64,000 nucleotides of DNA from a virus (Duplodnaviria; Caudoviricetes). The stretch covers positions 1 to 64,000 of IMG/VR virus record IMGVR_UViG_3300017700_000721. One strand, 5' to 3'. The notes under the pieces were generated by a model, which saw only the letters and a program-made list of their open reading frames with translations, was not told the DNA's origin and searched no databases. Below, piece after piece: positions 1,620-28,235 of this stretch; within the stretch, counting starts at the first letter, position 1; each line of letters begins with the position of its first letter. The translations under genes were made by a program, and so were the position numbers.

Positions 1620-1913
1620 AGGACCGCCCCGTTACTCGGTCTATGCTACGGAGTACAGGGTGACCAGAGCACCGCCGCGCACGACGATGATTAGTTCCCT
1701 TGGTTAGTTACCCGTTCGGGCGCATCATTGGGAGCGTCAGGTTGCTATCTTCGTTTCGGCTTCAACAATCCCCAAGGCGCTACCCCTTGGGTAATCTCAG
1801 CCTAACTCTATCGGGACTTACTTTTTTACCCCTCCTTAAGGATAGCCCGCCTGCTTTCACCAGTTACCCGGTGCTTCGTATCCAGCCTATGGACTCCCGC
1901 CGTTCTAATCTCT
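1620..1913 (-). ncRNA. Putative structured ncRNA or long structured leader (~300 nt)
   Basis: Directly downstream of consensus promoter 1920-1948; no credible ORF; hairpins CACCGG-GUAA-CUGGUG and CCCAAGG-N7-CCUUGGG; long-range GAUUAG/CUAAUC, GUUAGG/CCUGAC, GGGAG/CUCCC. Confidence 0.6.
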
Positions 1914-1919
1914 GCCCCT

Positions 1920-1948
1920 ATTATATCACAAGGTGAGCTCCTTGTCAA
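1920..1948 (-). promoter_or_regulatory. sigma70-type promoter
   Basis: TTGACA-17-TATAAT with extended TG. Confidence 0.9.
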
Positions 1949-1959
1949 CACTCTAATCC

Positions 1960-2617
1960 ATTCCGTCGGTGCAACCCTGCTATGCGTAGGTTGCATAAAA
2001 GTTCGGCTGCCGGGGCTTTTCTGGCGTCCTGAGAGGGACCGACCCTGGCTTCTGGTGCGAGGTATAAGCTCCACACCACTCTCTATTATCCCGGCCGACC
2101 GGGCACCTTCGCCGGGTGCACCCGGCTCTGGTCTCTTTGTCTGTATCGGGCTGGTATCCAGGAGAGCGGCGCCGCCCTTTGCCCCTCCACCACTTCGCTT
2201 GTCCGACGAGAATGGCCATCCCGTCCTTCCGCTCGACTTCCCTATTCGACTCGATCGCGTCGAGCCTACTGAGGGTTGTGCCCAATCTCTAATATCGAGG
2301 CCTGCGGAACGCGGTCAGTACGTCGACCAATCGGGGGAGAGATACGATTTCCCGCCGCGTCCGCCTGCCCGACGGTGCGATGCGACCCAGGGGATCGGTT
2401 ACGCCGCGTCGAAGAGGTTGGACTTGCCGCCTGCACCAGCTTCCTTTTCAGTCTACTGGAAGATCGACAAGTCCATTAGAGGGTATCCTATCGGATGATC
2501 CAGCCGGCCCCGCTTCAGTTGCCGGGCTGCCCCTCTCAAGACTTCCTCGCCTTCTAACGCACCCGGCGAGGTTGGGTGCCATCGTCGTGAGGATGCGCGT
2601 TCTGTTTCCCTCTTGAC
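1960..2617 (-). ncRNA. Putative large structured ncRNA (~660 nt)
   Basis: Own consensus promoter at 2624-2652; H-type pseudoknot 2545-2579; 12-bp long-range helix 2531-2542/2026-2037; 10-bp helix 2465-2474/2420-2429; mismatches are G-U on the minus strand only; no credible ORF. Confidence 0.75.
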
Positions 2618-2623
2618 CTCACT

Positions 2624-2652
2624 ATTATATCATAACGGAGTCAAGGTGTCAA
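2624..2652 (-). promoter_or_regulatory. sigma70-type promoter
   Basis: TTGACA-17-TATAAT with extended TG. Confidence 0.9.
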
Positions 2653-2668
2653 CTAACAATGCATGCAG

Positions 2669-3112
2669 TTAAGGAATACCTGTTATGCGTTCTTGATCAT
2701 CCTCGATTGGCCGGTAGGCGTAGTTGCCTGACTCGTAGGTTCTAGGCTCCGTTCCCTTCCCCAGGAACGCTCTCCGCCTTGACTTTCTCAGCCACTCTGT
2801 TAGACTCAGGGTCCCTGCTCCTGGTCCGCTGACGGGAACCCACTCGCCCAAGGGATGAAGGGTCCGGCGCTCCCACTGGGGCGGCAATCTCGCGACGGCG
2901 CCTTTCTGAGGCCGAGAGGTTCTCACTCGGGGTACTTGCCCCGAGAGGTCGGGCTGCTTTAACACCCACTTCCTGGCCAGGACTTTGCTCAGGAAGCTCT
3001 CCACCCTCTTTCCGTCTTTCTCGACGCTGTACACCCGGCTTTGGCTTGTTTTTACTCGTCGGATGAGGTGGCCGTTGAGAACGATCGGGGAACTCCTTGT
3101 TCCTTGCCTCAC
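2669..3112 (-). CDS. Hypothetical protein (overlaps RNase H C-terminal extension)
   Basis: 147-aa ORF, GTG start, globular-looking N-terminal half; ends just before next promoter. Confidence 0.5.
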   Translation of the reverse strand: MRQGTRSSPIVLNGHLIRRVKTSQSRVYSVEKDGKRVESFLSKVLARKWVLKQPDLSGQVPRVRTSRPQKGAVARLPPQWERRTLHPLGEWVPVSGPGAGTLSLTEWLRKSRRRAFLGKGTEPRTYESGNYAYRPIEDDQERITGIP

Positions 3113-3560
3113 GCATGGCCTCCTTCGCCATCTGGTCGCAGAGATTGTTCACACTAAACCTCGAGCCGTCTCCTGGCTGATGCCCTTTGACGTGCTTGGT
3201 TCGGAAGGTTAGGTTGAAACTCTCCGCCATCTTGAAAACGGCATCCCGGATCTCCTTGGACTCGGGGCTAAGTCTTTGCTTCGGTGTCCCGCCTACGTAG
3301 GTAAAGACTCCGAGCGCAGATAGACTGTCACACTGGACGAGGACCTCGTCGCCTACGAGGATGCCGCCTGCTTGAAGCCCTGAGTAAAGGACGTTTACGG
3401 CGGCTCGTGCCTCTGCGATGTCAGTCTTGTCTGTCTTTGCCTTTAGGACACCTTTGAACTGGAGTCCCTGCTGCATGCGATTGCTTTTAACCCAACCGCC
3501 ATATCCCACGATCCCCGTCTGTTGACAATGGGATGCGTCGGAGAAGAGCGTCACTAGCAA
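2742..3560 (-). CDS. rnhA: Ribonuclease HI
   Basis: FSDAS, AEARA, VQCDS, KHVKGH, NNLCDQMAK catalytic motifs; low-complexity tail. Confidence 0.9.
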   Translation of the reverse strand: MLVTLFSDASHCQQTGIVGYGGWVKSNRMQQGLQFKGVLKAKTDKTDIAEARAAVNVLYSGLQAGGILVGDEVLVQCDSLSALGVFTYVGGTPKQRLSPESKEIRDAVFKMAESFNLTFRTKHVKGHQPGDGSRFSVNNLCDQMAKEAMREARNKEFPDRSQRPPHPTSKNKPKPGVQRRERRKEGGELPEQSPGQEVGVKAARPLGASTPSENLSASERRRREIAAPVGAPDPSSLGRVGSRQRTRSRDPESNRVAEKVKAESVPGEGNGA

Positions 3561-3564
3561 ATCA

Positions 3565-4155
3565 TTACCTCCATGTTCGATGTTTGTCCTTGAAGTGTAA
3601 AACCTGTCGACGAGGGCTATCCTGCTCCTGCACGAGGAGTCGATCGTTGTATATAACTTCTACGGTCGCCGGTATTTCTACTTCGTTGGTGGTCCCGTCA
3701 ATGTTAAATTGCGTAAGGAGTATTGAAATCTCGTCCCCTTTCCCTGGTTGGGTCTGCTCGGGAGGCTCAAGGTCGCGAGCATGGACAGCGAACTTGGGTC
3801 CAATCTGGACAGGATAACCCATGTAGAAGGTGACTGGTGGGTACGGTACAATGTCCGGTGTGGCACACTTCCCGCTTTGAATGAGGTAATACTGCAGGTC
3901 CTTGTGCTCAATGTCCGTGATCTCAATCAGACAGACAAGAAGGTCCAATGTGTTGTAATGGGCAATCTCCTCGTTAATACGAAGGAGAATGTCCTCGGCG
4001 TTCCGCCAGATATGGTCTGATGTGGAACCCGGCGCCGGGCGGTCTGTGGGTAGGCCTACTATAGCGATGTTGTTCCAGTCGGGAGCGTTCCCAAACAATG
4101 AGTGGGCTACTGTCTTCAGTCCGCCAAGGAGAGTGTCCCATGCGTTAACCATCAC
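3565..4155 (-). CDS. Hypothetical protein
   Basis: 196-aa ORF coupled to neighbours. Confidence 0.7.
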   Translation of the reverse strand: MMVNAWDTLLGGLKTVAHSLFGNAPDWNNIAIVGLPTDRPAPGSTSDHIWRNAEDILLRINEEIAHYNTLDLLVCLIEITDIEHKDLQYYLIQSGKCATPDIVPYPPVTFYMGYPVQIGPKFAVHARDLEPPEQTQPGKGDEISILLTQFNIDGTTNEVEIPATVEVIYNDRLLVQEQDSPRRQVLHFKDKHRTWR

Positions 4156-4457
4156 GGTTCCCAGCTGTATCCCTTACCGTAGGTTGTCCTAATGGCTGAG
4201 AAGTCGGGGTCCACCCTGAGGAACTTCTTCTCCGTCCGGAGTTTGATCACCCGGATCGCGTTCGACCCTTGGTCCGCATTCTTCCAATCGGACTGGAAGA
4301 TGTGCTGGTAAGCCTCTTTGTACGAGCAAGGCTGCCCGTTCCTCCCCTTCACGAAGGCGAGGAACTTCTTCTCCGTCGGCGAGAATAGCAGTGGATTGCC
4401 CTTCCATTCGAAGGTCCTCGAGGCAGGCTCGCTTACGGGCAATGACGTTGAGGACAT
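4152..4457 (-). CDS. Stand-alone OmpR/PhoB-type winged-helix DNA-binding protein
   Basis: LLFSPTEKKFL...NAIRVIKLRTEKKF...IRTTYGKGY pattern of Trans_reg_C. Confidence 0.8.
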   Translation of the reverse strand: MSSTSLPVSEPASRTFEWKGNPLLFSPTEKKFLAFVKGRNGQPCSYKEAYQHIFQSDWKNADQGSNAIRVIKLRTEKKFLRVDPDFSAIRTTYGKGYSWEP

Positions 4458-4944
4458 GTTCGTCCATGCTCTTTATGTTGAGATTATGGAGGAGGTGGGG
4501 GTAGCCGTACTTCCAGTTTGCGTCGACCCGAGCCATACGGAGCTTAGTCTGTATGTCTGCGCAAGCATCCACGTAGTCAGGAGGGTCTGACATTACCGGC
4601 ACATGGTGCTCGTCGTGGATCGGAGGTGGATGGTTAAATGTGAATTCGTAAGCCTTGCGGAAGGCTGCTTCAAACTGCTCGTCGGACAGCTTGTCGAACT
4701 GAGCTCGGAAACCTGATCCGTTCTCGGGCAAAGTGCTTCCTAGCGTCTTGTAGCCGCAGCCGTAGCGCCATCCGTACATCAGCAGTTTCTGCACCTGCCT
4801 GATCTGGATGTGCTGGGCGATCGGAATGGTAGAGATTGGAGCCATCACCCGGGCTGCGGCCGTAGCTGTTTCCGGCATTGCCGGCTGAACGGCAGCGGCT
4901 GTCGCCAGGCCGAAGAAGCTCCGTCGGGTCAGGTTGACCTTCAC
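4189..4944 (-). CDS. Hypothetical protein with twin-arginine-like N-terminus
   Basis: GTG overlapping upstream TGA; NLTRRSFFGLATAAAV. Confidence 0.6.
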   Translation of the reverse strand: MKVNLTRRSFFGLATAAAVQPAMPETATAAARVMAPISTIPIAQHIQIRQVQKLLMYGWRYGCGYKTLGSTLPENGSGFRAQFDKLSDEQFEAAFRKAYEFTFNHPPPIHDEHHVPVMSDPPDYVDACADIQTKLRMARVDANWKYGYPHLLHNLNIKSMDEHVLNVIARKRACLEDLRMEGQSTAILADGEEVPRLREGEERAALLVQRGLPAHLPVRLEECGPRVERDPGDQTPDGEEVPQGGPRLLSH

Positions 4945-5078
4945 TTCGAAGCCTTCTTGTGGTTCTTTAGCATCTTGAGAGCTGCGTAAGGATCGCTGTG
5001 CTCGAAGCACAGCCCGCAACTACATGTCACCTTTGTGGTGGGTACGGCTGGCTCATAGCTCTTCAGGTTGTGCTTCAT
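4941..5078 (-). CDS. Small Cys/His protein (45 aa)
   Basis: MKHNLKSY...CSCGLCFEH...NH; fills gap, GTGA coupling. Confidence 0.55.
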   Translation of the reverse strand: MKHNLKSYEPAVPTTKVTCSCGLCFEHSDPYAALKMLKNHKKASK

Positions 5079-5087
5079 CGTAAGTCC

Positions 5088-5300
5088 CTATACAGGGAGA
5101 AGGTTTACACCCCAGGTCTGGGCGATGAAGCCGGCGCGGCGGAAGCGCATGGACTTACGATCCCCATACGCCATCGCCGGCTTCTTCAGGATCGATCGCT
5201 GGTCCTCTTTGACCAACTCCACGAGACGCGCTTGGTGGCGAGCATGGATCTTGCCTTCGTCGTAGGCTAGCTCGTGGAACCCGTCAAACTGCTCGGTCAT
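5088..5300 (-). CDS. Hypothetical early protein
   Basis: GGAGG SD, directly after promoter. Confidence 0.75.
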   Translation of the reverse strand: MTEQFDGFHELAYDEGKIHARHQARLVELVKEDQRSILKKPAMAYGDRKSMRFRRAGFIAQTWGVNLLPV

Positions 5301-5318
5301 GGTAGCCTCCAGGTCCTT

Positions 5319-5347
5319 ATTATATCACACCTGGGTAAGCTTGTCAA
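5319..5347 (-). promoter_or_regulatory. sigma70-type promoter
   Basis: TTGACA-17-TATAAT. Confidence 0.9.
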
Positions 5348-5613
5348 CTCGTCCGGATTGCTCGGTACTGGGTGTTAAGCCGCTTCATCAGCCCGATCTC
5401 GGAGTCCAGCTTCGCCCCGAGGTTGATAAGGGTTGAGCGTAGGTTCGCCGCCTCCACTTCGGTCAGGCCCAGGCTCTTGATCAGGGAGTGGTTGGAAAGG
5501 TTTGTGACCCGCTCCTTCAAATCACGGAGCTCGGCGCCGATGGTCGAAGTGGCCGAGATCTTGGCCCCTACGAGGACTTGGTTGCGGTTCCCAGCGTTCG
5601 TGTAACGAGCCAT
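5344..5613 (-). CDS. Hypothetical protein (helical)
   Basis: GGAGG SD; TAATG coupling. Confidence 0.7.
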   Translation of the reverse strand: MARYTNAGNRNQVLVGAKISATSTIGAELRDLKERVTNLSNHSLIKSLGLTEVEAANLRSTLINLGAKLDSEIGLMKRLNTQYRAIRTS

Positions 5614-5813
5614 TAGCGCTTCCTCCAACCGCCCACATAACCGAAGAAAGCCCAGAGCCTGTCTCCCCTCGTCGGGTTAGGGTCGTAGTCGACAGCCCAC
5701 CCTAGTCGTTTATAGGTCTGACCTTCTTCAGAAGTGAGACCCAACCAGATTGTTACACCCTTCCGAAAGATGCGATAGGTTGCTTTCGGTGCGGTTGGCT
5801 GCGGCTCGGTCAT
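5613..5813 (-). CDS. Hypothetical protein
   Basis: 66-aa ORF tiling the operon. Confidence 0.6.
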   Translation of the reverse strand: MTEPQPTAPKATYRIFRKGVTIWLGLTSEEGQTYKRLGWAVDYDPNPTRGDRLWAFFGYVGGWRKR

Positions 5814-6035
5814 CTAAGGCCTCTTGGGGAACTCGGCGGCACGGCTCAGCCACTTCTTCCTGAATACATGCCCGAGGTCCACGTTATGAGAAGAGCTAAG
5901 GAACCTCCCGCCCTTGGCTTCGTCGTAGTAAACCCCGGTAGGTATTCCGCCGGCGACTGGCCGGTGAGGCTTCCTCTTCACGGTGTACGGGCGGCCCAGC
6001 ATCATCCTCACGTCGGGCAGGCGATCTGCTACCAT
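5814..6035 (-). CDS. Hypothetical protein
   Basis: 73-aa ORF tiling the operon. Confidence 0.55.
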   Translation of the reverse strand: MVADRLPDVRMMLGRPYTVKRKPHRPVAGGIPTGVYYDEAKGGRFLSSSHNVDLGHVFRKKWLSRAAEFPKRP

Positions 6036-6457
6036 GGCTGTTGCGGGAAGTCAGCCGTCCGGTTCTTCCACAGCTCGTGGAAGTTGCGACCAAGGCCTCT
6101 GTGTGTCGCGTTGGTCTTGAACTGACCTGTCACGCCGTCCCAATAGATCCCTTGAGGGATCGGCAGGTTGTTCGACGGGGTTGCGTCCTTGACCTGCGGG
6201 TCGGTGAGGAAGCGGAGCTTCTGGATGGAGCGCTCGATCTCCTTCTCCATGTCGTCGAGTGCCTTCTCGGCCTTCATGACGGTGGCGTCACGGTCGAGAG
6301 CGAAGGTGACCATGGATATAGCGGCCACGCTCCCCTTCTCGGCTGTGGTGATGTGCGTCTTGCCGAACCAGAGCTTGAGCTCATGACCCTCGTCGACGAC
6401 CTTAATGTGCTTGAGTAGAGAGAAGAGGTTGGCAGTTTCGTTCGTCGACGAGGTCAT
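6029..6457 (-). CDS. Hypothetical protein
   Basis: 142-aa ORF, AAGGA SD. Confidence 0.75.
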   Translation of the reverse strand: MTSSTNETANLFSLLKHIKVVDEGHELKLWFGKTHITTAEKGSVAAISMVTFALDRDATVMKAEKALDDMEKEIERSIQKLRFLTDPQVKDATPSNNLPIPQGIYWDGVTGQFKTNATHRGLGRNFHELWKNRTADFPQQPW

Positions 6458-6466
6458 TATAAGTCC

Positions 6467-6694
6467 TTAGGTGTCGGCGCTTGAGGGGCGGCCCGTCTCG
6501 TAGTTGAAGAGGGCCTTGTTCTCCGGAATGGCCATGTCCGTGATCTCACCCCGGTAGCCGTCGGCGCGCACGGCCGGGAAGACTTCGGACGCCGGGCCCC
6601 GGTAGTCCTCCATCTCCACGTCGTTCTGGTCGAACACCCGTGTGGTTCCGTCGAGAAGCTGGAATACCTTCGTGATCCTACGCTGTTCGTCCAT
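6467..6694 (-). CDS. Hypothetical protein
   Basis: AGGAG SD before MDEQRR. Confidence 0.7.
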   Translation of the reverse strand: MDEQRRITKVFQLLDGTTRVFDQNDVEMEDYRGPASEVFPAVRADGYRGEITDMAIPENKALFNYETGRPSSADT

Positions 6695-6695
6695 G

Positions 6696-7151
6696 TCAAA
6701 ACTCCTGGCTGTCGTCAACGGTGTATACCTTGCTCACCCAATCAGAGTGATTAGCGAAAACAAAGCGATCCTGCTGGCCAACCTCCCCACCTACGTAGAA
6801 ACGCTTGTCGGCCGCAACGTGCACGAAGTCTGGCTTCCCGAAGAAGCGAACCATCCGGTCAAATTGCTCGGTTCCACGCTTCACGCCGACGAAGTGTAAG
6901 GCTGAGCTGTCCCCTGGGAACGAGTAGTAACCCCTGGTTACTTCAGCCATATCTCGGGTGACACCGCTGTAGGCTACGTGCACCTCCATCAAGGAGAAAG
7001 CCTGCGCCAACGAGAAGCCCATCGTCCGGTAGTTCCGACCAGACAAGAACTCGCTGTGCATCAACGTCTTGGGTATGGGCGGGCTCAAGGGAGGCGGCTC
7101 AGGCATCCCTCGCAACCTCTTAACCTTGGCCTTCATCTCGGGGCTCATCAT
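6696..7151 (-). CDS. Hypothetical early protein
   Basis: GAGGAG SD after promoter. Confidence 0.75.
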   Translation of the reverse strand: MMSPEMKAKVKRLRGMPEPPPLSPPIPKTLMHSEFLSGRNYRTMGFSLAQAFSLMEVHVAYSGVTRDMAEVTRGYYSFPGDSSALHFVGVKRGTEQFDRMVRFFGKPDFVHVAADKRFYVGGEVGQQDRFVFANHSDWVSKVYTVDDSQEF

Positions 7152-7174
7152 GGCATGTCTCCTCTGTTGTGCCC

Positions 7175-7203
7175 ATTATAACACAACCTAGGGTTGGTGT
7201 CAA
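7175..7203 (-). promoter_or_regulatory. sigma70-type promoter
   Basis: TTGACA-17-TATAAT. Confidence 0.9.
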
Positions 7204-7529
7204 CGTTCTATTTCAAGTCCTCGCTCCTCCATCCGGCGCTTCCATTCCTCACGACGAGTCTTGGTCCAGCCCCGGTAGTGCCAGTAATCAAACTCACCTG
7301 GCTGGAAAGGACCGTAGGTCCTAACTACAGGTAGGTGCCTCTGGACCACCTGAAATGCCATGAGGGTGCGGGCCGAGGTTCGCCTCATAGCAGGCGTCAG
7401 GTCCGATACGTTAAAGTCGTAGGCTGTCGCCTGACGGAGATCGCCTCGATCGGTGATCACTAAGGCTTCTGCGAGGGCGGCGGTCGCAATTATCCGTGCG
7501 TCTTCCAGGTTCATCTCTTGGCTCATCAT
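7200..7529 (-). CDS. Hypothetical protein
   Basis: AGGAGG SD before MMSQEM. Confidence 0.7.
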   Translation of the reverse strand: MMSQEMNLEDARIIATAALAEALVITDRGDLRQATAYDFNVSDLTPAMRRTSARTLMAFQVVQRHLPVVRTYGPFQPGEFDYWHYRGWTKTRREEWKRRMEERGLEIER

Positions 7530-7542
7530 AAGAGCCTCCTGT

Positions 7543-7761
7543 TTACAGCTGTGCCTTGATGACCATCGCGGCGTAGCGGGCGGCGGTGTTATCGTCACCC
7601 TCGATCCCGGCGGCCTTGGCCTTAGCCAAGGATTGCAGCATCTCCTTGAAGACGCTGTCGCGCGGCAGGATCGGCCCGTCACGCATCATCCAGATGACCT
7701 GCTCGAGGGTCGCCCGCATCTGACGGGCTGCGCTGTCTCGCTCGTTCTGCTCGGTGCTCAT
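7543..7761 (-). CDS. Hypothetical protein
   Basis: SD before MSTEQN; strong codon bias. Confidence 0.7.
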   Translation of the reverse strand: MSTEQNERDSAARQMRATLEQVIWMMRDGPILPRDSVFKEMLQSLAKAKAAGIEGDDNTAARYAAMVIKAQL

Positions 7762-7765
7762 GTCC

Positions 7766-8065
7766 TTACCTCCGGTGGGTGTTGGCGAAGCCGCTGAACA
7801 TGGCGCGCATGTTGCTGCGACGGGTTGTAGGACGAGGGGTCGGGAAGTCACCGATCTTCTTGATCTCGCACTGGACGATGCCCGTCTCCTCCTTCATCAG
7901 GGCAGCGAGCTCGCCGATCGTGTTGGCCTCGAAGGTGGCACGAACGCGGCGGCTTCCTTCGGCGCCGGTCATGAGAACTCCGCCGAGGGTGTATTGCGCG
8001 TCGCGGTCAGCGTGAAGGCTCTTGACTTCGAGGACCGGGTTCTCGTTGGAGGTGTTGAAGGCCAT
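7766..8065 (-). CDS. Hypothetical early protein
   Basis: AAGGAG SD after promoter. Confidence 0.75.
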   Translation of the reverse strand: MAFNTSNENPVLEVKSLHADRDAQYTLGGVLMTGAEGSRRVRATFEANTIGELAALMKEETGIVQCEIKKIGDFPTPRPTTRRSNMRAMFSGFANTHRR

Positions 8066-8089
8066 CTGTCTCTCCTTGTTGATGTCACT

Positions 8090-8118
8090 ATTATAGCACA
8101 GCTAGGGACAGATGTCAA
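8090..8118 (-). promoter_or_regulatory. sigma70-type promoter
   Basis: TTGACA-17-TATAAT. Confidence 0.9.
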
Positions 8119-8135
8119 CAAGAGAAGTTATGCTC

Positions 8136-8342
8136 TTAGCGCGTTCCTGGTATGCGCCGGACGATGACGGTTGTCGGTGTCCTCGTCATCCGCTCTATGG
8201 CTTTGTTGGCCGCATCCTCAGTCGGGTAGAACCCCATTGTGGAGTTGACCGTCTTCCAGGCGCCTTTAATGCCCCAGGTCACGGAGCCGTTCCGGTTGGT
8301 CATAGGGACGGCTCCGTAAACGGCAGGCTTACGAGCCGGCAT
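8136..8342 (-). CDS. Hypothetical protein
   Basis: MPARKPAVYG...; purine-rich SD. Confidence 0.6.
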   Translation of the reverse strand: MPARKPAVYGAVPMTNRNGSVTWGIKGAWKTVNSTMGFYPTEDAANKAIERMTRTPTTVIVRRIPGTR

Positions 8343-8589
8343 CTTCCTTCTCCAGCTGCTTGGCCTCGAACTCCTCGATAGCCTCGTCCAACTGATCATC
8401 GTATTCAGCCTGCCAGACCTCGTCTTTCGTGACCTCGGTGATGATCTCGCTGGGGAACTGGTTGGGAGCGGTCGCACAGAACCGCTCCAAGAAGGCGTCG
8501 GCTTGAGCCTTGGCGTGGTCCATCATCGCCCGCTTCTGCTGAGCGGAGCGGCCGGAGACAATCTCGTCTTCACGTAGGTTGCGGGTCAT
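8329..8589 (-). CDS. Hypothetical acidic protein
   Basis: 86-aa ORF with acidic C-terminus. Confidence 0.7.
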   Translation of the reverse strand: MTRNLREDEIVSGRSAQQKRAMMDHAKAQADAFLERFCATAPNQFPSEIITEVTKDEVWQAEYDDQLDEAIEEFEAKQLEKEDAGS

Positions 8590-8599
8590 TTTCTGTTCC

Positions 8600-8839
8600 T
8601 TACTGTTCCGGGTTGATGCTGTGCTTGGTGTCCAGCCATGTGAACTTGGGGTCCATACCCACGGGAACCACCTGATTGTTTAGAAGGTCTACCATGCTAG
8701 GCATGAAGCGCTCGTAGGTTGGGTGATCGTCATCGTACCGTTCGTAAACCCGTACCAACCAAGTGAGCAAGATCGGGCTCATCTGCAGGTGAATTATGAT
8801 CATCCCACGAATGTAATGGTCGGGTTTGGGCTCACTCAT
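8600..8839 (-). CDS. Hypothetical protein
   Basis: MSEPKPDH... tiling ORF. Confidence 0.6.
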   Translation of the reverse strand: MSEPKPDHYIRGMIIIHLQMSPILLTWLVRVYERYDDDHPTYERFMPSMVDLLNNQVVPVGMDPKFTWLDTKHSINPEQ

Positions 8840-9131
8840 TGTCGTAGGCCTTCTCGTGTCTAGCGTCCCAATCCTTCTGTAGCGAGAACTGGTTGGATCC
8901 ATCTTGTTTGGCCTTGATAGAGGCTCGGGCTGCTTTCAGCGCGCCGGTCTTGGTCCGGAACGGATATCCTGTGTGACCGTAGTTGTCCTGCACCCCGATG
9001 ATGTAGTTGCAGAACCAGGTTCTGGTCGGGATGAAGCTCGCGCCGTCGTCCCCGTCCATCTTCTCGATGAGATCAACGGCCTTGGCGTTCGGGTTCTGGG
9101 CACGATCCCAGACGGCGCTGTAGTTGGTCAT
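8832..9131 (-). CDS. Hypothetical early protein
   Basis: GAGGAG SD after promoter. Confidence 0.75.
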   Translation of the reverse strand: MTNYSAVWDRAQNPNAKAVDLIEKMDGDDGASFIPTRTWFCNYIIGVQDNYGHTGYPFRTKTGALKAARASIKAKQDGSNQFSLQKDWDARHEKAYDNE

Positions 9132-9156
9132 TCTGATGTCTCCTCGTTGATGCCCT

Positions 9157-9185
9157 ATTTTAGCACACTAGGGGCGTGGTGTCAA
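9157..9185 (-). promoter_or_regulatory. sigma70-type promoter
   Basis: TTGACA-17-TAAAAT with TG extension. Confidence 0.85.
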
Positions 9186-9214
9186 CAAGAAATGTATGCG
9201 CTAGTGCATTCTAG

Positions 9215-9601
9215 CTATGCACTAGGTACGTCAATCTCGTCCGCGATCTTCGCAAAGATCATCTTCTTGGCCAGCATTTCGAGGACTCGGCGGGCGGCGT
9301 TCTGCTCCTTCCGCTGATGACTCTCGAAACGAGCTGCGTAGGTTGATCCTTCGACCGCGTCGACAAGGATCGCCTTGTCAAGGTCCGTGAAAATCGGTGG
9401 GATGGTCCTGTCGTTCGCCCCAACTAGAATAGCCAGGTGTTGGGCCCGCTCGAGCACTTCTTCGTAGGTGTCGGAGACTGTTGGCTTCTCTCCTGGGAAT
9501 GCGTCCGTGAGGGCCGAGGCGATGCAGTCCGGCAGATTGAGCCGGTCCATAATTGCAGCATGTTCGTTCGGTGAGAGACGCACGTGGTCGGTTCCGGTCA
9601 T
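9215..9601 (-). CDS. Hypothetical protein
   Basis: 128 aa, AGGAG SD. Confidence 0.75.
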   Translation of the reverse strand: MTGTDHVRLSPNEHAAIMDRLNLPDCIASALTDAFPGEKPTVSDTYEEVLERAQHLAILVGANDRTIPPIFTDLDKAILVDAVEGSTYAARFESHQRKEQNAARRVLEMLAKKMIFAKIADEIDVPSA

Positions 9602-9610
9602 GATTGGCTC

Positions 9611-9751
9611 CTAGTGCACGGTCTTCGGCGGAACGTACCGCTTCACAAACTCTTCTTTGTCCGGGCAGTTACGCCCAAACCAGCGGTGCATGCCGGTTAC
9701 CAACTCGAAAGCGTATTCCATCTTGATTGCGATCAGAACTTGCTCGAACAT
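9611..9751 (-). CDS. Small early protein (46 aa)
   Basis: GAGGAGG SD; MFEQVLIAIKMEYAFELVTG... Confidence 0.65.
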   Translation of the reverse strand: MFEQVLIAIKMEYAFELVTGMHRWFGRNCPDKEEFVKRYVPPKTVH

Positions 9752-9775
9752 AAACCCTCCTCAGGCTACCATACA

Positions 9776-9804
9776 ATTATAGCATATTCGGAGGCATTTG
9801 TCAA
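9776..9804 (-). promoter_or_regulatory. sigma70-type promoter
   Basis: TTGACA-17-TATAAT. Confidence 0.9.
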
Positions 9805-9819
9805 CTATTCATTTCAGAC

Positions 9820-9862
9820 AAAAGAAAGGGCCGCCCGTCCCCGTGACTTAAGCGACCCTTTC
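9820..9862 (-). terminator. Intrinsic terminator
   Basis: GAAAGGGUCGC/GCGGCCCUUUC stem followed by U-tract. Confidence 0.75.
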
Positions 9863-10340
9863 CGTCTACCCATAAATGCACTGGCATGTGCTGCCTGGCG
9901 CTAGCTACAGGCCGTCCAGTGGGGCTGTTGCCCCTTGCCATCGGCGTGATGGGCGACATACGGGGAACTTGGTGAGAGGTTCTTGCTCGACGGCTGTGGC
10001 CGGAGCGCTCTCGACGATACAGTAAAAGAACGCTTCGCCCCGGAAGTAGGTTGATGCCGCGATTACGCGGAGCAGGCTGGGCCGGGTGACGTTCAATCTC
10101 ATCTACCGCCTTAGGCCGCACACTGTCTCTCGACAATGGCGGCCTTGATAAGGTGGGAGTGAGAAGGCGGATTGCAGCGGCCCTTCTACTATCCCTATGT
10201 GCCGCTTTACTGCTCCTTCATTCACTTTCTCCTGGGCCTCGGCCCGGTTCAGGTCTTTGGCTGCTTGTCTTCCACCTGGCTGCCCCTAGAGAACGGGGCG
10301 CCTGTCTGGTGTAGGACGCCGGCGCCGGCAGATCAGGTGC
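9820..10340 (-). ncRNA. Putative large structured RNA (~520 nt) downstream of a leader ORF
   Basis: No credible ORF; AGGCCGC-CAUUGUC-GAGA-GACAGUG-U-GCGGCCU hairpin (10113-10145), CACCUG/CAGGUG, GGAGCAG/CUGCUCC long-range pair, GGGGC-AACA-GCCCC, ends in terminator. Confidence 0.6.
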
Positions 10341-10389
10341 GGTCGAGCTTGGAATTCACACAAACCATGAGCCCGGTGAAACTTCGCAT
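10333..10389 (-). CDS. 18-aa leader/micro-peptide
   Basis: AAAGGAGG SD then MRSFTGLMVCVNSKLDRT*. Confidence 0.5.
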   Translation of the reverse strand: MRSFTGLMVCVNSKLDRT

Positions 10390-10459
10390 GTAAACCTCCT
10401 TTCTTTCCTTTGCACACCCGAGAACTGAGATGGAAACATGCCGGGTGTCTGCTTGCCCC

Positions 10460-17676: not shown

Positions 17677-17690
17677 TGGTTGCTCCTAAA

Positions 17691-17855
17691 GGGGCTGCGG
17701 GCCGGACTGGGTACCGGCTCCTCTGAGCTACGGTCAGCTTTCAGCGGGCCGACCGGAAGACCACGACGCTCTTCGTCCTTCCGCTTACAAAGCGGCTGCT
17801 CTCTTCGTGGCGGGCGCCTTTGCGTGCCGCAGGTCAATCCCTGCCGCCGCAACCC
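17691..17855 (-). ncRNA. 165-nt RNA with circularly permuted tRNA-Thr(UGU)-like domain
   Basis: Closing stem GGGUUGCGG/CCGCAGCCC; AGAGCA-GCCGC-UU-UGU-AA-GCGGA-AGGAC, T-like stem GAAGA/UCUUC, acceptor-like CGGUCGGC/GCUGACCG closed by a loop, then UAGCUCAGAGG; upstream TG-G-TATGGT extended -10. Confidence 0.7.
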
Positions 17856-17913
17856 GAAATCACCATACCAAACTTTTGCAATTATTTAGAACCTTCCGGG
17901 GGTGGGATAAGGC

Positions 17914-18147
17914 TCATTCGACGGGTTCCACTTTAAAGCACTCCGAGTCCACCTTGATGGTATTCCACTTCCCGCCCTTCAGCTTCTCGAAGTGCTTGTA
18001 CTCAGCCTCGCGGGACTTACAGGCAGCTTCGGTTGCAAAGCCTCGCTCCATGTAGGGTACGATCTGGCGCGGCGATGAGTTTGAGGTCGCGTCGTGGTTG
18101 GTGAACACAGCGGCGATGAGGGTCCAGGTTGCAACTAGGGGCGTCAT
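17914..18147 (-). CDS. Small secreted protein
   Basis: Hydrophobic N-terminus, F.TE.AC...C. Confidence 0.65.
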   Translation of the reverse strand: MTPLVATWTLIAAVFTNHDATSNSSPRQIVPYMERGFATEAACKSREAEYKHFEKLKGGKWNTIKVDSECFKVEPVE

Positions 18148-22559: not shown

Positions 22560-22562
22560 GAT

Positions 22563-22803: not shown

Positions 22804-22851
22804 CTAACCAGTTACGCCCCTAGTGAATAGCTGATATGCTTCTAGAACAGA

Positions 22852-23887: not shown

Positions 23888-23934
23888 TTAATCCTCCATC
23901 TGTCTCGATCCATACCAAAACAAATGGATTCCAC

Positions 23935-24783: not shown

Positions 24784-24796
24784 GACTTACCTACGA

Positions 24797-27127
24797 TCAG
24801 GAACAGTCCGACTTTCCACAGTTCATACACGTCTTGCAGCCTGAGTTCGAAATCACTGCCGGCGTGTTACAAGAGGAGCAGAGCATTCCAAGGACCTTGT
24901 CCAGGGCCTTTGACTTCTCGGTAGGCTCGGCTTCAGGTGCCTCAATCGTCACGTCGTCAGGGATCAGCCCCAGCCATTTGAAGTGCTCTTCGATCTTGAA
25001 GCCGATCGCGGCCACGAGAGAGTTGATGTAGGATCCCTCGTGCCACATACCACCGAGAGCTGAGCGAACCTGCTTCAATTCCTCGATGATAAAGGTTACG
25101 TCACCTCCACGACGGAAGATGGCGGTGATAAGGAGGGTGATGGCCTTCGTCCACTCCTCGTGCTGTGCCGACTTCGAGATGATAAACATCTCGAAGGGAC
25201 GACGCTGACCGGCTTCGTCCTTGTAGTCGTTGATCACGATGTAAAATGCCTGGTCCGTCGTCGGCCACTTCACCCGATAGCGACGACCTTCGAGGGTATC
25301 CTTCATCGGAACTTTGTCGACAGGAGCCTTGACTGCGGTCTTCTTCGCCAGAACTGTTCCGCGACCGCTTTCCGGGTTCGGGCGATAAGTCGTACAGCCC
25401 TTGAGGCCGAGCTCGTAGGCCCGGCTGTAAACCTTCTGGAAAGACTCGAAGGTCATGTCCTGCGGACAATTGATTGTCTTGGAGATCGACGAGTCAATCC
25501 ACTCCTGGCAGGCTGCCATCACGGCAACATGCTCATCCACTGTGAGTGTGTCAGCCGTGCAGGTGATGTAGTCCGGAAGGGCGTTCCCACCGTCGAGAGG
25601 CAAGCCCTTCACCTCATGGTACTTGAGATAGCCGTAGTCGTACAGCTCGAAGGTCTTGAAGGATCCGTCGGCCTGGAGCACGCGGCGGGTGCCTTCAAGG
25701 CTGAAAACAGGCTCGATCCCCGACGATGTGTTACCGGCTGTGACAGATGTCGTCCCGGTCGGAGCGATGGTCATTAGCACGGCGTTGCGGATGCCGTAGG
25801 CTGCTATCCCTTCCACGATGTCCTCCGGGAGCTTCTTGATGAAGTTTCCCTGGAGGTATTGCTCCTTCCGGAAAGCAGGAAAGGAGCCGCGCTCCTTCGC
25901 AAGGTTAATCGACGCCCTGTAAGCGGCGCAGGTCATTTCCTTCGTGATCTCGCTTGTGATCTCGATTGCCTTGGCCGACCCATATTTCACACCCAGCATC
26001 TGTAGGGCGTTGGCCAATCCCGTGAAGCCAATGCCTGTTCGACGCTTGGCCTGAGCTTCTTCCTTCTGGCTGGGCGTCGGGAAAAGACTCACATCCAATA
26101 CGTTGTCCAAGAAGCGGACAAGGACCCCGGCCGTCCACCTCAAAGCGGCATAGTCGAAAGAGGCTTCTGGCGTGAAAGGGTCGGTCACCATCACAGCGAG
26201 ATTGATGTGGCCCAGGTTGCAGTCACCGTTGGCCGGCAAAGGCTGCTCACCACACGGATTGGTACAGTGAATGTACTCGCAGTAGTGCAGGTTGTTCCAG
26301 TAGTTGATCCGGTCAACGAAGATTATGCCCGGTTCGGCGTGCTCATAGGTGTTCCTGATGATCTCGTCCCAGAGCACACGCGCCTTGATGCGCTCGTAAA
26401 CGTACCTGGTCTGACCATCACGCTCATATGTGTCGACGTGCTTGCGGTCTCGGCGAGGGACAGTGAAGAACAGATCCCAATCAAGATCCTTCTCCAGGCA
26501 TTCCATGAAGACGTCCGTCACCAGGACGGAAACGTTGAAATTGGTCAAACGACCAGGTGTCCGCTTGGCCTTGATGAACTCCCGAATGTCGGGATGATGG
26601 ATGGCCAGAGTTGCCATCATTGCGCCGCGGCGAGAACCCGAAGACATGATCGTCGAGCACATCGAGTGCCACATGTCCATGAAATGGAGCACGCCAGATG
26701 ACTCAGAGAAAGTGCGTAGGACCTCGGCACCGCGCGGCCGGAGGGGTGTGAAATCCATTCCGATGCCACCGCCCATCTGCTGGGTGAGGGCGGCCTGCTT
26801 CAGGGCGTCCATGATGCCAAGGCCGGGCTTGTCTCGCTCGGTGTCCATGCTGTCTTGGATGTCGTCACTGACGAAACAGTTGATCAGCGTGACCCTCTTC
26901 TTCGTGCCAGCACCAGACATAATACGTCCGGCCGGGACCATCCGGCGACTCACAAGGGCTGACAGCACCTCGTCATGGAATGAGTTCTTCGGGTCCTTCT
27001 CGGACACCGCCTTCGCGAGCCTGGCAAAGGTCTCGTCGATCGTCTTCTCGTTGTCGTAGGAGTACTTATCTTTCCAGATCTCGTGCACGATCGGCTGCAC
27101 AGTCTCGGCCGGATTGGTCATTTCCAC
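24797..27127 (-). CDS. nrdJ: Class II (adenosylcobalamin-dependent) ribonucleotide reductase
   Basis: PAGRI, LINCFV, GGGIGMDF, RRGAMM, TNPCGEQPL, TIAPTGT, ISKTIN, C-terminal domain with Cys pairs; no small subunit nearby. Confidence 0.95.
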   Translation of the reverse strand: MEMTNPAETVQPIVHEIWKDKYSYDNEKTIDETFARLAKAVSEKDPKNSFHDEVLSALVSRRMVPAGRIMSGAGTKKRVTLINCFVSDDIQDSMDTERDKPGLGIMDALKQAALTQQMGGGIGMDFTPLRPRGAEVLRTFSESSGVLHFMDMWHSMCSTIMSSGSRRGAMMATLAIHHPDIREFIKAKRTPGRLTNFNVSVLVTDVFMECLEKDLDWDLFFTVPRRDRKHVDTYERDGQTRYVYERIKARVLWDEIIRNTYEHAEPGIIFVDRINYWNNLHYCEYIHCTNPCGEQPLPANGDCNLGHINLAVMVTDPFTPEASFDYAALRWTAGVLVRFLDNVLDVSLFPTPSQKEEAQAKRRTGIGFTGLANALQMLGVKYGSAKAIEITSEITKEMTCAAYRASINLAKERGSFPAFRKEQYLQGNFIKKLPEDIVEGIAAYGIRNAVLMTIAPTGTTSVTAGNTSSGIEPVFSLEGTRRVLQADGSFKTFELYDYGYLKYHEVKGLPLDGGNALPDYITCTADTLTVDEHVAVMAACQEWIDSSISKTINCPQDMTFESFQKVYSRAYELGLKGCTTYRPNPESGRGTVLAKKTAVKAPVDKVPMKDTLEGRRYRVKWPTTDQAFYIVINDYKDEAGQRRPFEMFIISKSAQHEEWTKAITLLITAIFRRGGDVTFIIEELKQVRSALGGMWHEGSYINSLVAAIGFKIEEHFKWLGLIPDDVTIEAPEAEPTEKSKALDKVLGMLCSSCNTPAVISNSGCKTCMNCGKSDCS

Positions 27128-27213
27128 TCGCTGATTGTAAGGTTAGGCTGATGCGAAAGGAAACAATCAAGGATTGCCTCTCCCTTCCGATCATACACCT
27201 AAGCATTCGACCG

Positions 27214-27507
27214 TTAATCGGAGAAGCGATCCTTGGTTGCCCAAGCGTAAATTGCCACGATGGCCAAAGACCAAAAGCGCTCCGGCTGGCATTCCATTTT
27301 CTCTACGTCCCGCTTGGCGACGGTGGCAGCAGAGATCTGCTCCCTCAACCCTTCGTAGATCAGCCAGACCTCGCGAGGACTCTCCGGTATCATCTCCATT
27401 TGCAGTCGGTCCAAGGCTGACTTCAAGGCTATCAGCTGGGTGTCCATCTGCAAAAGGGCGATCTCCTTCGTGTGCCATGAAGGGATCTTGATCTTAGGTT
27501 TAGCCAA
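27214..27507 (-). CDS. Hypothetical protein
   Basis: TTG start after GAGGT SD. Confidence 0.6.
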   Translation of the reverse strand: MAKPKIKIPSWHTKEIALLQMDTQLIALKSALDRLQMEMIPESPREVWLIYEGLREQISAATVAKRDVEKMECQPERFWSLAIVAIYAWATKDRFSD

Positions 27508-28081
27508 TGTGACCTCGCCTGATCTCTGTAAGCTCGGCCATTGACCTTTCCCTGTTCCAGATAAAGGAGAAGGTGAACTCTTGGTAGTGGTAGTTTTGCT
27601 CAGAGTCAATGGGGTTGGACACGCACTTCCCGCGGCGAACAATCTCCCGGCAGAACTCTTGTGTCCATTCCAAGAACCGGGCCGTCTTGTTGGTCCGGAT
27701 GATGAATTCCTTCAGGAAAAGATCCAGCAGGTCTTCGACCGCGGCGTAGGACGGGAAGAACTGATCCTGGTGGGAAAGGGGCCGGTTCTGCACTTGGACA
27801 GCATCGCTGATAAGATCAGGTTCATCGCCCCCTGGCACAGCCGGCAAGTTCACGACGTTGGGGTCGTTGACCTTTCCGCCTTCCTTCCGCCGCTGGATCT
27901 CTAGACGGGCGAGCTTCTCCCAATCCTTTCCAAAGTAATCCAGCTTGTAGAGCTCACCGCTGGCGTTCTTCTTGTTGGGGAGAGACATCCACCTCAAGTA
28001 ACCATCGCTGAGCTCTGACAGGCGGAGGTTGCGATGTTGACCCCAGCCGAGGGCAAGATCAGGAAAAGGTGCCGTGCTCAT
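27500..28081 (-). CDS. DUF3820-like (exonuclease X C-terminal-like) domain protein
   Basis: LGWGQHRNLRLSELSDGYLRW. Confidence 0.65.
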   Translation of the reverse strand: MSTAPFPDLALGWGQHRNLRLSELSDGYLRWMSLPNKKNASGELYKLDYFGKDWEKLARLEIQRRKEGGKVNDPNVVNLPAVPGGDEPDLISDAVQVQNRPLSHQDQFFPSYAAVEDLLDLFLKEFIIRTNKTARFLEWTQEFCREIVRRGKCVSNPIDSEQNYHYQEFTFSFIWNRERSMAELTEIRRGHIG

Positions 28082-28093
28082 GTTCCACCATAC

Positions 28094-28125
28094 AAGAAGG
28101 GGCAAGGATTGCTCCCTGCCCCTTC
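28094..28125 (-). terminator. Terminator-like hairpin
   Basis: GAAGGGGCAGGGA-GCAA-UCCUUGCCCCUUC-UU. Confidence 0.7.
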
Positions 28126-28126
28126 A

Positions 28127-28235
28127 GGGGGCTCCCCGGTCAGAGCGTCCTTCAACTCAGAAGCAACACTTGGGTTCAGCCTCACGGCGCCCGCTGCCAA
28201 CCACGTCCACACTCTCCAGGAGCTGGAGCCCTCCC
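28127..28235 (-). ncRNA. Putative ~110-nt rod-like RNA element
   Basis: Nested GGGCUCC/GGAGCCC, CCUGG/CCGGG, AGAGUG/CGCUCU, GGCAGC/GUUGCU, GCC-GUGA-GGC. Confidence 0.45.

What the first reader, a model, noticed from the sequence alone, without database searches (positions are those of the whole stretch)
1620..28235. Candidate RNA-based host-takeover system: five unexplained structured RNAs in one phage segment
Seen: most intergenic gaps over 100 nt in the left 28 kb (1620-1913, 1960-2617, 9820-10340, 17691-17855, 28127-28235) fold extensively on the coding strand, together ~1.7 kb, while no ordinary tRNA gene is present. Neighbours include RNase HI, a basic peptide and NADAR. Inference: the phage invests in early, strongly transcribed RNA effectors (decoys, scaffolds or anti-defence sponges) that may act together.
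Basis: inference. Interest (0 to 1): 0.75.

Follow-up and report, generated by a model that had tools for sequence, protein, structure and literature searches.

The report
Five unrelated phage gaps, one likely RNA
The five gene-free stretches in this uncultured phage do not form one RNA system: one is probably a real, new, large folded RNA made from its own strong promoter, and the other four look like ordinary leaders, trailers and terminator spacers.

Summary
The five gaps exist, lack credible ORFs, and the window has no tRNA or Rfam match. "Folds extensively" is mostly a 57% G+C effect. The other three give z -3.5 to -4.0, -3.05 and -2.3, a range that coding windows of this genome also reach.

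The five share no meaningful sequence and pair with each other no better than shuffles. Their contexts differ:
- Two sit behind perfect sigma-70 promoters.
- One is a 3' trailer that ends in a terminator.
- One is a 5' leader.
- One is a spacer beside a terminator.

Only RNA1 (2617-1960) has independent support. It lies in the genome's largest ORF-free block and has its own 12/12 promoter. It ranks 1 of 24 same-length windows for fold definition. It has a 14-bp closing helix (top 1.7% of windows) and a compact H-type pseudoknot.

No homologue of any element could be reached, so conservation and expression are untested. Verdict: the "system" is not supported; RNA1 is a plausible new orphan phage ncRNA.

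The parts
2624..2652 (-). Promoter P2652: TTGACA, 17 nt, TGnTATAAT (12/12). Inferred transcription start near 2617.
   Evidence: It is one of only two perfect promoters in the genome with no Shine-Dalgarno plus start codon in the 70 nt printed downstream of the -10; a perfect promoter at 86394, inside a coding frame, also lacks a Shine-Dalgarno sequence.
1960..2617 (-). RNA1: a 658-nt ORF-free transcript and candidate stand-alone structured RNA. Its 3' end is undefined because no intrinsic terminator was found.
   Evidence: No coding signal in any frame. z -3.5 to -4.0 against shuffles. Rank 1 of 24 windows for MFE per nt (-0.427), diversity (0.128 per nt) and entropy (0.53). No Rfam match even at E<=10 apart from noise.
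2545..2579 (-). Compact H-type pseudoknot in RNA1. S1 is GCACCC/GGGUGC (2579-2574 with 2564-2559). S2 is CCUCGCC/GGCGAGG (2571-2565 with 2551-2545). Loops are 2, 0 and 7 nt.
   Evidence: only 3 such perfect motifs on the 118-kb minus strand and 0 on the plus strand, against 0.2 expected per shuffled strand. S2 has pairing probability above 0.9 in one of the three fold contexts tested, 1914-2617.
2026..2542 (-). Closed core of RNA1. A 14-bp helix (2542-2529 with 2039-2026) is extended by 2527-2524/2045-2042 and 2513-2508/2062-2057, enclosing about 515 nt.
   Evidence: Pairing probability above 0.9 in three different fold contexts. Only 3 of 177 same-length windows have an uninterrupted helix of 14 bp or more.
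1920..1948 (-). Promoter P1948: TTGACA, 17 nt, TGnTATAAT (12/12). Inferred transcription start near 1913.
1604..1913 (-). RNA2: a purine-rich, unstructured leader of about 310 nt for the micro-protein gene. It carries an orphan UAAGGAGGGG at about 1838-1829.
   Evidence: z +0.04. MFE and entropy are ordinary. Windows at 1600-2000 are in the top 0.1-1% of the genome for purine content (60.7%) and G skew (+0.21). The Shine-Dalgarno-like motif at 1837 has no start codon after it.
1436..1603 (-). 55-aa Arg/Lys-rich micro-protein gene.
   Evidence: Codon score 0.59 per codon. No Pfam or PHROG family. The Atlas gave only unnamed small-protein clusters.
1371..1429 (-). Two-tier hairpin (11 + 10 bp) without a U tail, between the micro-protein stop and the tail-fibre ATG at 1362. 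Candidate processing site (RNase III type).
   Evidence: MFE -30.6 kcal/mol, z -5.2. The downstream ORF matches tail-fibre PHROGs.
10333..10389 (-). 18-codon ORF behind a strong Shine-Dalgarno sequence (AAAGGAGG), just after the NADAR gene.
   Evidence: Read from the sequence. Weak positive frame score at 10410-10380.
9864..10332 (-). R3: ORF-free 3' trailer of the NADAR operon. It has no promoter of its own.
   Evidence: No promoter found in it. No coding signal. Without the terminator its MFE per nt sits at the 15th percentile and its entropy is ordinary. No Rfam or phage-database match.
10113..10145 (-). 14-bp hairpin with a GAGA loop inside R3.
   Evidence: MFE -25.4 kcal/mol, z -6.6.
9822..9863 (-). 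Intrinsic terminator ending R3, directly upstream of perfect promoter P9804.
   Evidence: Stem followed by UUUCUUUUGU, z -4.45.
17691..17855 (-). R4: G+C-rich clamped 5' leader. GGGUUGCGG pairs with CCGCAGCCC, ending 4 nt before the Shine-Dalgarno sequence of a 129-aa ORF with a twin-arginine-like signal (17676-17287).
   Evidence: z -2.3. Lowest MFE per nt of 98 windows, entropy ordinary. The Shine-Dalgarno sequence is not sequestered. No Rfam match. ARAGORN rejects de-permuted tRNA constructs.
28127..28235 (-). R5: G+C-rich intergenic spacer after a thymidylate-kinase-like gene. It is not more stable than shuffles.
   Evidence: z -0.29. Its low MFE per nt is compositional.
28095..28125 (-). 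13-bp perfect hairpin followed by UUGUAU. This is the real structured element next to R5 and looks like a terminator or attenuator.
   Evidence: MFE -26 kcal/mol, z -5.35.

Best explanation
The five stretches are separate features of different kinds, not one RNA system.

(1) RNA1 (2617-1960) is most likely a real non-coding RNA gene. Host RNA polymerase fires from a perfect extended -10 sigma-70 promoter into 658 nt with no ORF. The transcript folds into a closed core of about 515 nt. A 14-bp long-range helix seals the core, and a compact H-type pseudoknot sits 2 nt upstream of that helix. No terminator follows. I infer that the core is released or stabilised by cleavage in the long closing stalk, as rRNAs are cut out of leader-trailer stems by RNase III. 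I also infer that the product acts in trans as an abundant protein-binding or self-assembling RNA. The promoter, the absence of an ORF and the fold statistics are shown. The processing and the trans action are inferred.

(2) RNA2 (1913-1604) is the purine-rich, unstructured leader of a 55-aa Arg-rich micro-protein gene, made from a second perfect promoter. Its orphan Shine-Dalgarno-like polypurine tract may hold a ribosome and stabilise the message, as in phage SP82 (inferred).

(3) 10332-9822 is the 3' trailer of the NADAR operon. It follows an 18-codon ORF and ends in a strong terminator.

(4) 17855-17691 is a G+C-rich clamp in a 5' leader. It leaves the Shine-Dalgarno sequence free, so it is most likely an mRNA-end stabiliser.

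(5) 28235-28127 is spacer sequence beside a terminator hairpin.
For: - Different contexts: only P2652 and P1948 feed non-coding sequence. Most of the other perfect promoters have a Shine-Dalgarno sequence and start codon within about 20-50 nt.
- R3 has no promoter and ends in a terminator.
- R4 abuts a free Shine-Dalgarno sequence.
- R5 is no more stable than shuffles, while the neighbouring 13-bp hairpin has z -5.35.
- No shared sequence and no complementarity beyond chance between the elements.
- RNA1: no coding signal; rank 1 of 24 windows on three fold measures; the closing helix is robust to fold boundaries and in the top 1.7% of windows; the pseudoknot motif is rare; it lies in the largest ORF-free block of the genome.
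- RNA2: z 0.04, top 0.1-1% for purine content and G skew, orphan Shine-Dalgarno motif.
- Ribosome binding without translation is a known stabiliser, including in SP82 phage mRNA (review PMC7509114, citing Hue et al. 1995).
Against: - There is no comparative or expression evidence for any element, so no pair in RNA1 is backed by covariation.
- RNA1's shuffle z-score is matched by 2 of 13 coding windows.
- Two of the three perfect pseudoknot motifs in the genome lie inside coding sequence, so such motifs can arise without a dedicated RNA function.
- RNA1 has no terminator, so it might be only the upstream part of a long leader.
- Orphan Shine-Dalgarno motifs are common inside this genome's genes.
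- R1 and R4 share a 12-mer and a 10-mer in the same order. I treat this as chance after 10 pair comparisons, but it is not excluded as a shared motif.
Confidence: 0.55

Rival explanations
1. One reading: the five RNAs are early effectors (decoys, scaffolds or sponges) that act together as an RNA-based host-takeover system.
For: - All five lie on the coding strand in the left 28 kb among small genes of unknown function and a NADAR gene.
- Two have perfect promoters.
- R1 and R4 share AGCGGAAGGACG and CCGGTCGGCC.
Against: - Two elements are no more stable than shuffles.
- Three have no promoter of their own meeting the consensus.
- No duplex between elements beats shuffles.
- The R1/R4 match does not extend into an alignment.
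- GGA sponge motifs are not enriched.
- Perfect promoters occur all over the genome.
Confidence: 0.05
2. The RNA1/RNA2 block is a transcription-primed replication origin. Strong promoters make a G- and purine-rich transcript that stays hybridised as an R-loop. The adjacent RNase H trims it and a family A polymerase extends it, as at ColE1 RNA II or T4 oriF/oriG.
For: - The RNase H gene lies directly upstream.
- The non-template strand at 1600-2000 is in the top 0.1-1% for purine content and G skew.
- Cumulative GC skew has its minimum at about 2-4 kb and its maximum at about 49 kb although all genes share one strand.
- Third-position skew also differs between the two arms.
- The direction of leading-strand synthesis primed from these promoters agrees with the sign of the skew (inference).
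Against: - The skew minimum is broad (2-12 kb), while the sharp step is at about 48-49 kb, where a perfect DnaA box and a promoter sit.
- No AT-rich unwinding element, iterons or DnaA boxes occur in 1.4-2.8 kb.
- No antisense control promoter was found.
- RNA1's closed, well-defined fold is not needed for priming.
Confidence: 0.12
3. RNA1 and RNA2 form one long cis-acting leader in front of the micro-protein and tail-fibre genes, like the non-coding A1-A2-A3 promoter region and RNase III site at the start of the T7 early operon. It would serve mRNA stability, processing or anti-termination and yield no free RNA product.
For: - Tandem perfect promoters in the same direction.
- No terminator between 2652 and 1362.
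- A strong hairpin at 1429-1371 just before the next ATG.
Against: - The promoters are 704 nt apart, so P1948 makes P2652 redundant for downstream expression.
- No E. coli-type boxA occurs in the block.
- The downstream gene is a tail fibre, a late function.
- RNA1's core is self-enclosed.
Confidence: 0.18
4. The gaps are decayed genes or hold unrecognised small proteins, and the predicted folds are incidental to 57-61% G+C.
For: - Coding windows fold as well by z-score.
- Accessory regions of phages turn over quickly; the adjacent RNase H has no relative above 36% identity among 5.8 billion proteins, although the capsid has relatives up to 90%.
- Small ORFs exist, such as the 18-codon ORF and the 65-aa ORF at 10102-9905.
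Against: - No frame shows residual codon bias over 2620-1640.
- No Pfam or PHROG match for any gap ORF, even at E<=1.
- Two perfect promoters are maintained in front of the block.
- RNA1 is an outlier for fold definition, closing helix and pseudoknot.
Confidence: 0.1

Closest known systems
ROOL and GOLLD (large 'ornate' RNAs of phages and prophages; Rfam RF03087, RF01998)
   Same: RNA1 is phage-encoded, 500-800 nt, ORF-free, multi-domain and of unknown function.
   Different: No match to either covariance model, even at E<=10. No adjacent tRNA genes. No homologues are known, so there is no covariation support.
T7 early leader: tandem host-RNAP promoters A1, A2 and A3 followed by RNase III site R0.3 (textbook knowledge)
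   Same: Tandem strong sigma-70 promoters firing into non-coding sequence, then a long hairpin just before the next gene.
   Different: The spacing here is 704 nt rather than about 125 nt. The block is not shown to be at a genome end. The downstream large gene is a tail fibre, not an early gene. RNase III cleavage is untested.
Polypurine / orphan Shine-Dalgarno 5' mRNA stabilisers (phage SP82 early RNA, Hue et al. 1995; cryIIIA STAB-SD)
   Same: RNA2 is purine-rich and unstructured. It carries UAAGGAGGGG with no start codon, about 75 nt from the inferred 5' end. The phage has an SPO1/SP82-like capsid protein (40% identity).
   Different: The host is unknown and probably Gram-negative-like in its promoters. 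The known stabilisers act against 5' exonuclease in Bacillus. Orphan Shine-Dalgarno motifs are frequent in this genome. No decay data exist.
rRNA leader-trailer processing stalks (RNase III)
   Same: A long-range helix of about 24 bp in three segments encloses a large folded core.
   Different: No rRNA similarity and no boxA. Cleavage was not tested.
ColE1 RNA II and T4 oriF/oriG R-loop origins
   Same: A strong promoter, a G-rich transcript, RNase H next door, and a GC-skew minimum nearby.
   Different: No mapped origin, no antisense RNA I-like unit and no unwinding element. The skew step is sharper at about 49 kb.

Membership tests
Any Rfam 15 family (4227 models) | Covariance-model score at or above the family's gathering score | tested here: not met
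   Whole window: 0 matches. E-value mode on 1400-2800, 9750-10470, 17650-17930 and 2500-2625 gave only noise (E>1).
ROOL / GOLLD | Match to RF03087 or RF01998 | tested here: not met
   Neither family appears even at E<=10 on 1400-2800.
ROOL / GOLLD | Frequent location beside tRNA genes in phages and prophages | tested here: not met
   No tRNA in the 64-kb window.
Proteo-phage-1 RNA (RF03044) | Score of at least 42 bits | tested here: not met
   15.9 bits at 2131-2005. E is 7.7 across all families and 0.15 for this family on this genome. The model also gives sub-threshold hits in 10 of 14 control genomes.
tRNA or circularly permuted tRNA (for 17691-17855) | Cloverleaf recognised after the halves are re-joined; canonical T loop | tested here: not met
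   ARAGORN found 0 genes in five de-permuted constructs. The T-like loop has 9 nt and lacks the GUUCRANYC consensus (sequence).
Y RNA / YrlA with Ro60 | A TROVE (Ro60) protein encoded in the same genome | tested here: not met
   PF05731 is absent from the 118-kb genome and RtcB is also absent.
Retron msr/msd or DGR template RNA | A reverse transcriptase gene; for a DGR, a template/variable repeat pair | tested here: not met
   PF00078 is absent. No repeat of any element occurs elsewhere in the genome.
CsrB/RsmZ-type sponge RNA | Many GGA motifs, enriched over composition | tested here: not met
   GGA counts are within 1.3 sd of shuffles in all five elements.
rrn-type antitermination leader | A boxA element (GCUCUUUAACAA-like) downstream of the promoter | tested here: not met
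   No match with 2 or fewer mismatches in 1400-2800. The host's boxA variant is unknown.
ColE1/T4-type R-loop origin | RNase H available; G-rich transcript; initiation mapped at the site | tested here: inconclusive
   RNase H is adjacent, G skew is in the top 1% and the GC-skew minimum is at 2-4 kb but broad.
T7-like early leader | Tandem host promoters followed by an RNase III hairpin before the first gene | tested here: inconclusive
   Promoters are present. Hairpin 1429-1371 has z -5.2. Cleavage and genome-end position are not testable here.

The most novel reading that the evidence does not exclude
RNA1 is the founding member of an undescribed class of large phage non-coding RNA. It would be a self-enclosed core of about 515 nt, clamped by a 5' H-type pseudoknot and cut out of its transcript through an rRNA-like stalk. 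It would be made in quantity by host polymerase to bind or divert a host factor. RNA2 and the Arg-rich micro-protein might be its partners.
Probability: 0.3. Interest if true: 0.6.

Novelty: new member of a known kind. Interest (0 to 1): 0.33.

Why it matters
A phage that ran host takeover through a set of cooperating RNAs would be a new strategy, but the evidence does not support that here. What remains is narrower. An uncultured 118-kb SPO1-like phage of a G+C-rich host spends two consensus promoters and 1.1 kb of a tightly packed genome on non-coding sequence, and one transcript has the hallmarks of a designed fold yet matches no catalogued RNA. Large orphan phage RNAs such as ROOL and GOLLD still have no known function, so each new example with a defined promoter is a usable test object. 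The practical lesson is that in 57-60% G+C genomes, 'folds extensively' and shuffle z-scores near -3 are background. Claims need calibration against same-genome coding windows.

Tried and rejected
HOMOLOGUE SEARCHES, ALL EMPTY
- Megablast and blastn against 50,697 phage records for 1400-10500, 1600-2700, 9750-10470 and 17650-17930.
- The exact pseudoknot pattern in viral contigs and metagenome contigs.
- The same pattern in genome contigs gave two hits, in Streptomyces and Rhodanobacter. Both are unrelated high-G+C sequence, so chance.

PROTEIN ROUTES TO RELATED LOCI
- RNase H, the fibre N-terminus, TerL, the capsid protein and RNR as single queries gave nothing near.
- RNase H has no relative above 36% identity.
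- The capsid protein has relatives at 90% (49.7-kb contig) and 70% (113.6-kb contig). Neither alignment-based scan returned them.
- The IMG/VR fragments that were returned (57-68% capsid identity) do not cover the left end and hold no match to 1400-2760 or to the fibre.
- A 97-kb distant relative has no RNase H homologue.

TOOLS NOT AVAILABLE

READINGS CONSIDERED AND REJECTED
- Hidden genes
- tRNA or permuted tRNA
- Y RNA with Ro60, retron or DGR
- CsrA sponge
- boxA antitermination
- Proteo-phage-1
- Repeats or iterons
- Inter-RNA pairing

OTHER
- A search for a paper on this genome by its length found nothing.
- The Atlas look-up of the micro-protein gave only unnamed clusters.
Full report
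SETTING. The window is the first 64 kb of a 118,081-bp IMG/VR viral contig. The contig has direct terminal repeats, is rated complete, and its ends overlap by about 120 nt inside a fibre gene. G+C is about 57%. Essentially every gene is on the minus strand. The capsid protein is SPO1-like at 40% identity. ORF 24797-27127 is a class II ribonucleotide reductase. The window has no tRNA and no Rfam match at gathering score.

THE GAPS ARE REAL.
- A codon-usage log-odds scan trained on 47 long genes shows no coding signal in any minus-strand frame over 2620-1640 or 10330-9830. The true frame of known genes averages 0.65 per codon with a 5th percentile of 0.25; the gaps stay at or below 0.18, apart from blips of 0.23 near 10260 and 0.45 near 10080 in R3.
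- No gap ORF combines a coding score with a Shine-Dalgarno sequence.
- None matches Pfam or PHROGs, even at E<=1.
- Block 1604-2741 is the largest truly ORF-free stretch of the genome. The other long low-score region, 67.8-68.7 kb, is filled by a 299-aa ORF with atypical codon usage.

PROMOTERS.
- The genome carries about 20 perfect TTGACA-17-TGnTATAAT promoters, all on the minus strand and spread over the whole 118 kb. Perfect promoters therefore do not mark the left 28 kb as a special module.
- Most of the others have a Shine-Dalgarno sequence and start codon within about 20-50 nt. P2652 and P1948 instead fire into 658 nt and about 310 nt of non-coding sequence (sequence).
- This is the strongest argument that RNA1 and RNA2 are made, but it remains an inference.
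- R3, R4 and R5 have no consensus promoter of their own. R4 has at best an extended -10-like TGGTATGGT.

STABILITY.
- Against dinucleotide shuffles: R1 z -4.0 and -3.5, R2 +0.04, R3 -3.05, R4 -2.30, R5 -0.29.
- Calibration matters. Thirteen coding windows of 658 nt from the same strand range from +1.4 to -4.8, and two are at or below -3.5. Windows of 200 nt inside genes reach -3.7.

WHAT STILL SINGLES OUT R1.
- It ranks first of 24 same-length windows for MFE per nt (-0.427; background -0.369 +/- 0.027), ensemble diversity (0.128 per nt; background 0.242 +/- 0.051) and positional entropy (0.53; background 1.02 +/- 0.22).
- A 14-bp helix (2542-2529 with 2039-2026) is extended by two further helices and closes a core of about 515 nt. 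Its pairing probability exceeds 0.9 whichever flanks are included. Only 3 of 177 windows have an uninterrupted helix that long.
- Two nucleotides upstream sits a perfect compact H-type pseudoknot (6 + 7 bp, loops of 2, 0 and 7 nt, 2579-2545). Only three such motifs exist on the minus strand and none on the plus strand, against 0.2 expected per shuffled strand. The other two lie inside coding sequence, which tempers the argument.
- RNA1 has no intrinsic terminator.

THE OTHER FOUR.
- R2 folds no better than chance, but it is among the most purine-rich (60.7%) and G-skewed (+0.21) 300-nt windows of the genome. It carries an orphan UAAGGAGGGG and runs into the micro-protein gene. A 21-bp two-tier hairpin (z -5.2) follows, just before the tail-fibre ATG.
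- R3 follows an 18-codon ORF with a strong Shine-Dalgarno sequence. It holds a 14-bp GAGA-capped hairpin (z -6.6) and ends in a terminator (z -4.45) directly before P9804. Otherwise its fold measures are ordinary.
- R4 is a G+C-rich clamp with the lowest MFE per nt of 98 windows but ordinary entropy. It ends 4 nt before the free Shine-Dalgarno sequence of a 129-aa ORF with a twin-arginine-like signal. A companion note read it as a circularly permuted tRNA, but ARAGORN does not accept re-joined constructs.
- R5 is compositional only. The real structure there is the adjacent 13-bp hairpin with a U-rich tail (z -5.35).

DO THEY ACT TOGETHER?
- No 9-mer is shared between elements, apart from a 10-nt stretch between R1 and R3 and a 12-mer and a 10-mer between R1 and R4. 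The R1/R4 match does not extend into an alignment.
- No element has a second copy in the genome.
- None of the 10 pairwise duplex energies beats its shuffles (z from +1.8 to -1.6).
- GGA motifs are not enriched.
- The genome has no reverse transcriptase, Ro60 or RtcB that would point to retron, DGR or Y-RNA modules.

COMPARATIVE EVIDENCE. None could be obtained; the routes tried are listed under Tried and rejected. One informative result: the RNase H next to RNA1 has no relative above 36% identity among 5.8 billion proteins, while the capsid protein has relatives at 90% and 70% identity on long contigs. The left-end neighbourhood therefore looks lineage-specific.

RIVALS. Four were weighed.
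- An R-loop origin is attractive. RNase H is adjacent, the transcript is G-rich, and cumulative GC skew has its minimum at 2-4 kb and maximum near 49 kb although all genes share one strand. However, the minimum is broad, the sharp step lies at 48-49 kb beside a perfect DnaA box, and no origin motifs occur in the block.
- A T7-style cis leader fits the tandem promoters and the hairpin. It does not fit the 704-nt spacing, the redundancy of P2652 or the self-enclosed core.
- Decayed genes are disfavoured by the absence of residual codon bias and by the maintained promoters.
- The five-part system gets 0.05.

VERDICT. The 'system' is not supported. RNA1 is a credible new orphan structured RNA of a known general kind. 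A separate note of this scan (e1-5959743) already describes it.

Noticed in passing
whole genome, e.g. window 22803, 20040, 9804, 8118, 7203, 5347, 49579, 55500, 59501; beyond the window 86394, 96637, 97154, 100214, 103780, 106203: About 20 perfect TTGACA-17-TGnTATAAT promoters, all on the minus strand and none on the plus strand. One lies inside the second polymerase gene. The phage seems to rely on host sigma-70 RNA polymerase across the whole genome.
   Followed up: partly
genome 108872-109666 (L002:8873-9667, minus): An RlaP-family (PF10127) nucleotidyltransferase, a family linked to RNA repair. The genome has no RtcB, Ro60 or tRNA genes. It could repair host RNA damaged by defence nucleases.
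   Followed up: partly
window 49551-49605 and the skew step at about 48-49 kb: Third-position GC skew of the coding strand jumps from about -0.19 to about -0.01 at 48 kb. A perfect DnaA box (49597-49605) and a perfect promoter (49579) sit there. This is a candidate replication origin or terminus.
   Followed up: partly
window 37469-37432; genome 77683-77653: Two further perfect compact H-type pseudoknot motifs, both inside coding sequence. The 37.25-37.51 kb 'gap' is really an ORF that starts at a TTG overlapping the upstream stop. No slippery site was obvious.
   Followed up: partly
window 10333-10389 (minus): An 18-codon ORF (MRSFTGLMVCVNSKLDRT) behind AAAGGAGG, directly after the NADAR gene. 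It could be a micro-protein or a leader peptide.
   Followed up: no
window 17287-17676 (minus): A 129-aa ORF with a twin-arginine-like signal (RRGFLFGAGSLLMAPAIVRA) and no family match. It overlaps the annotated start of a DUF1289 ORF.
   Followed up: no
window 2222-2233 and 2091-2100 versus 17774-17785 and 17746-17755: RNA1 and R4 share AGCGGAAGGACG and CCGGTCGGCC in the same order but at different spacing (about 130 nt and 17 nt). About 0.007 and 0.1 such matches are expected by chance for this pair. There is no wider alignment.
   Followed up: partly
genome 67803-68702 (minus): A 299-aa ORF with clearly atypical codon usage and lower G+C, probably acquired recently.
   Followed up: no
window 1-1362 joined to genome 117467-118081: The contig ends overlap by about 120 nt inside one fibre-like ORF of about 620 aa, whose C-terminus matches tail-fibre PHROGs. 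The start of the record is therefore an assembly cut, not a physical genome end.
   Followed up: partly
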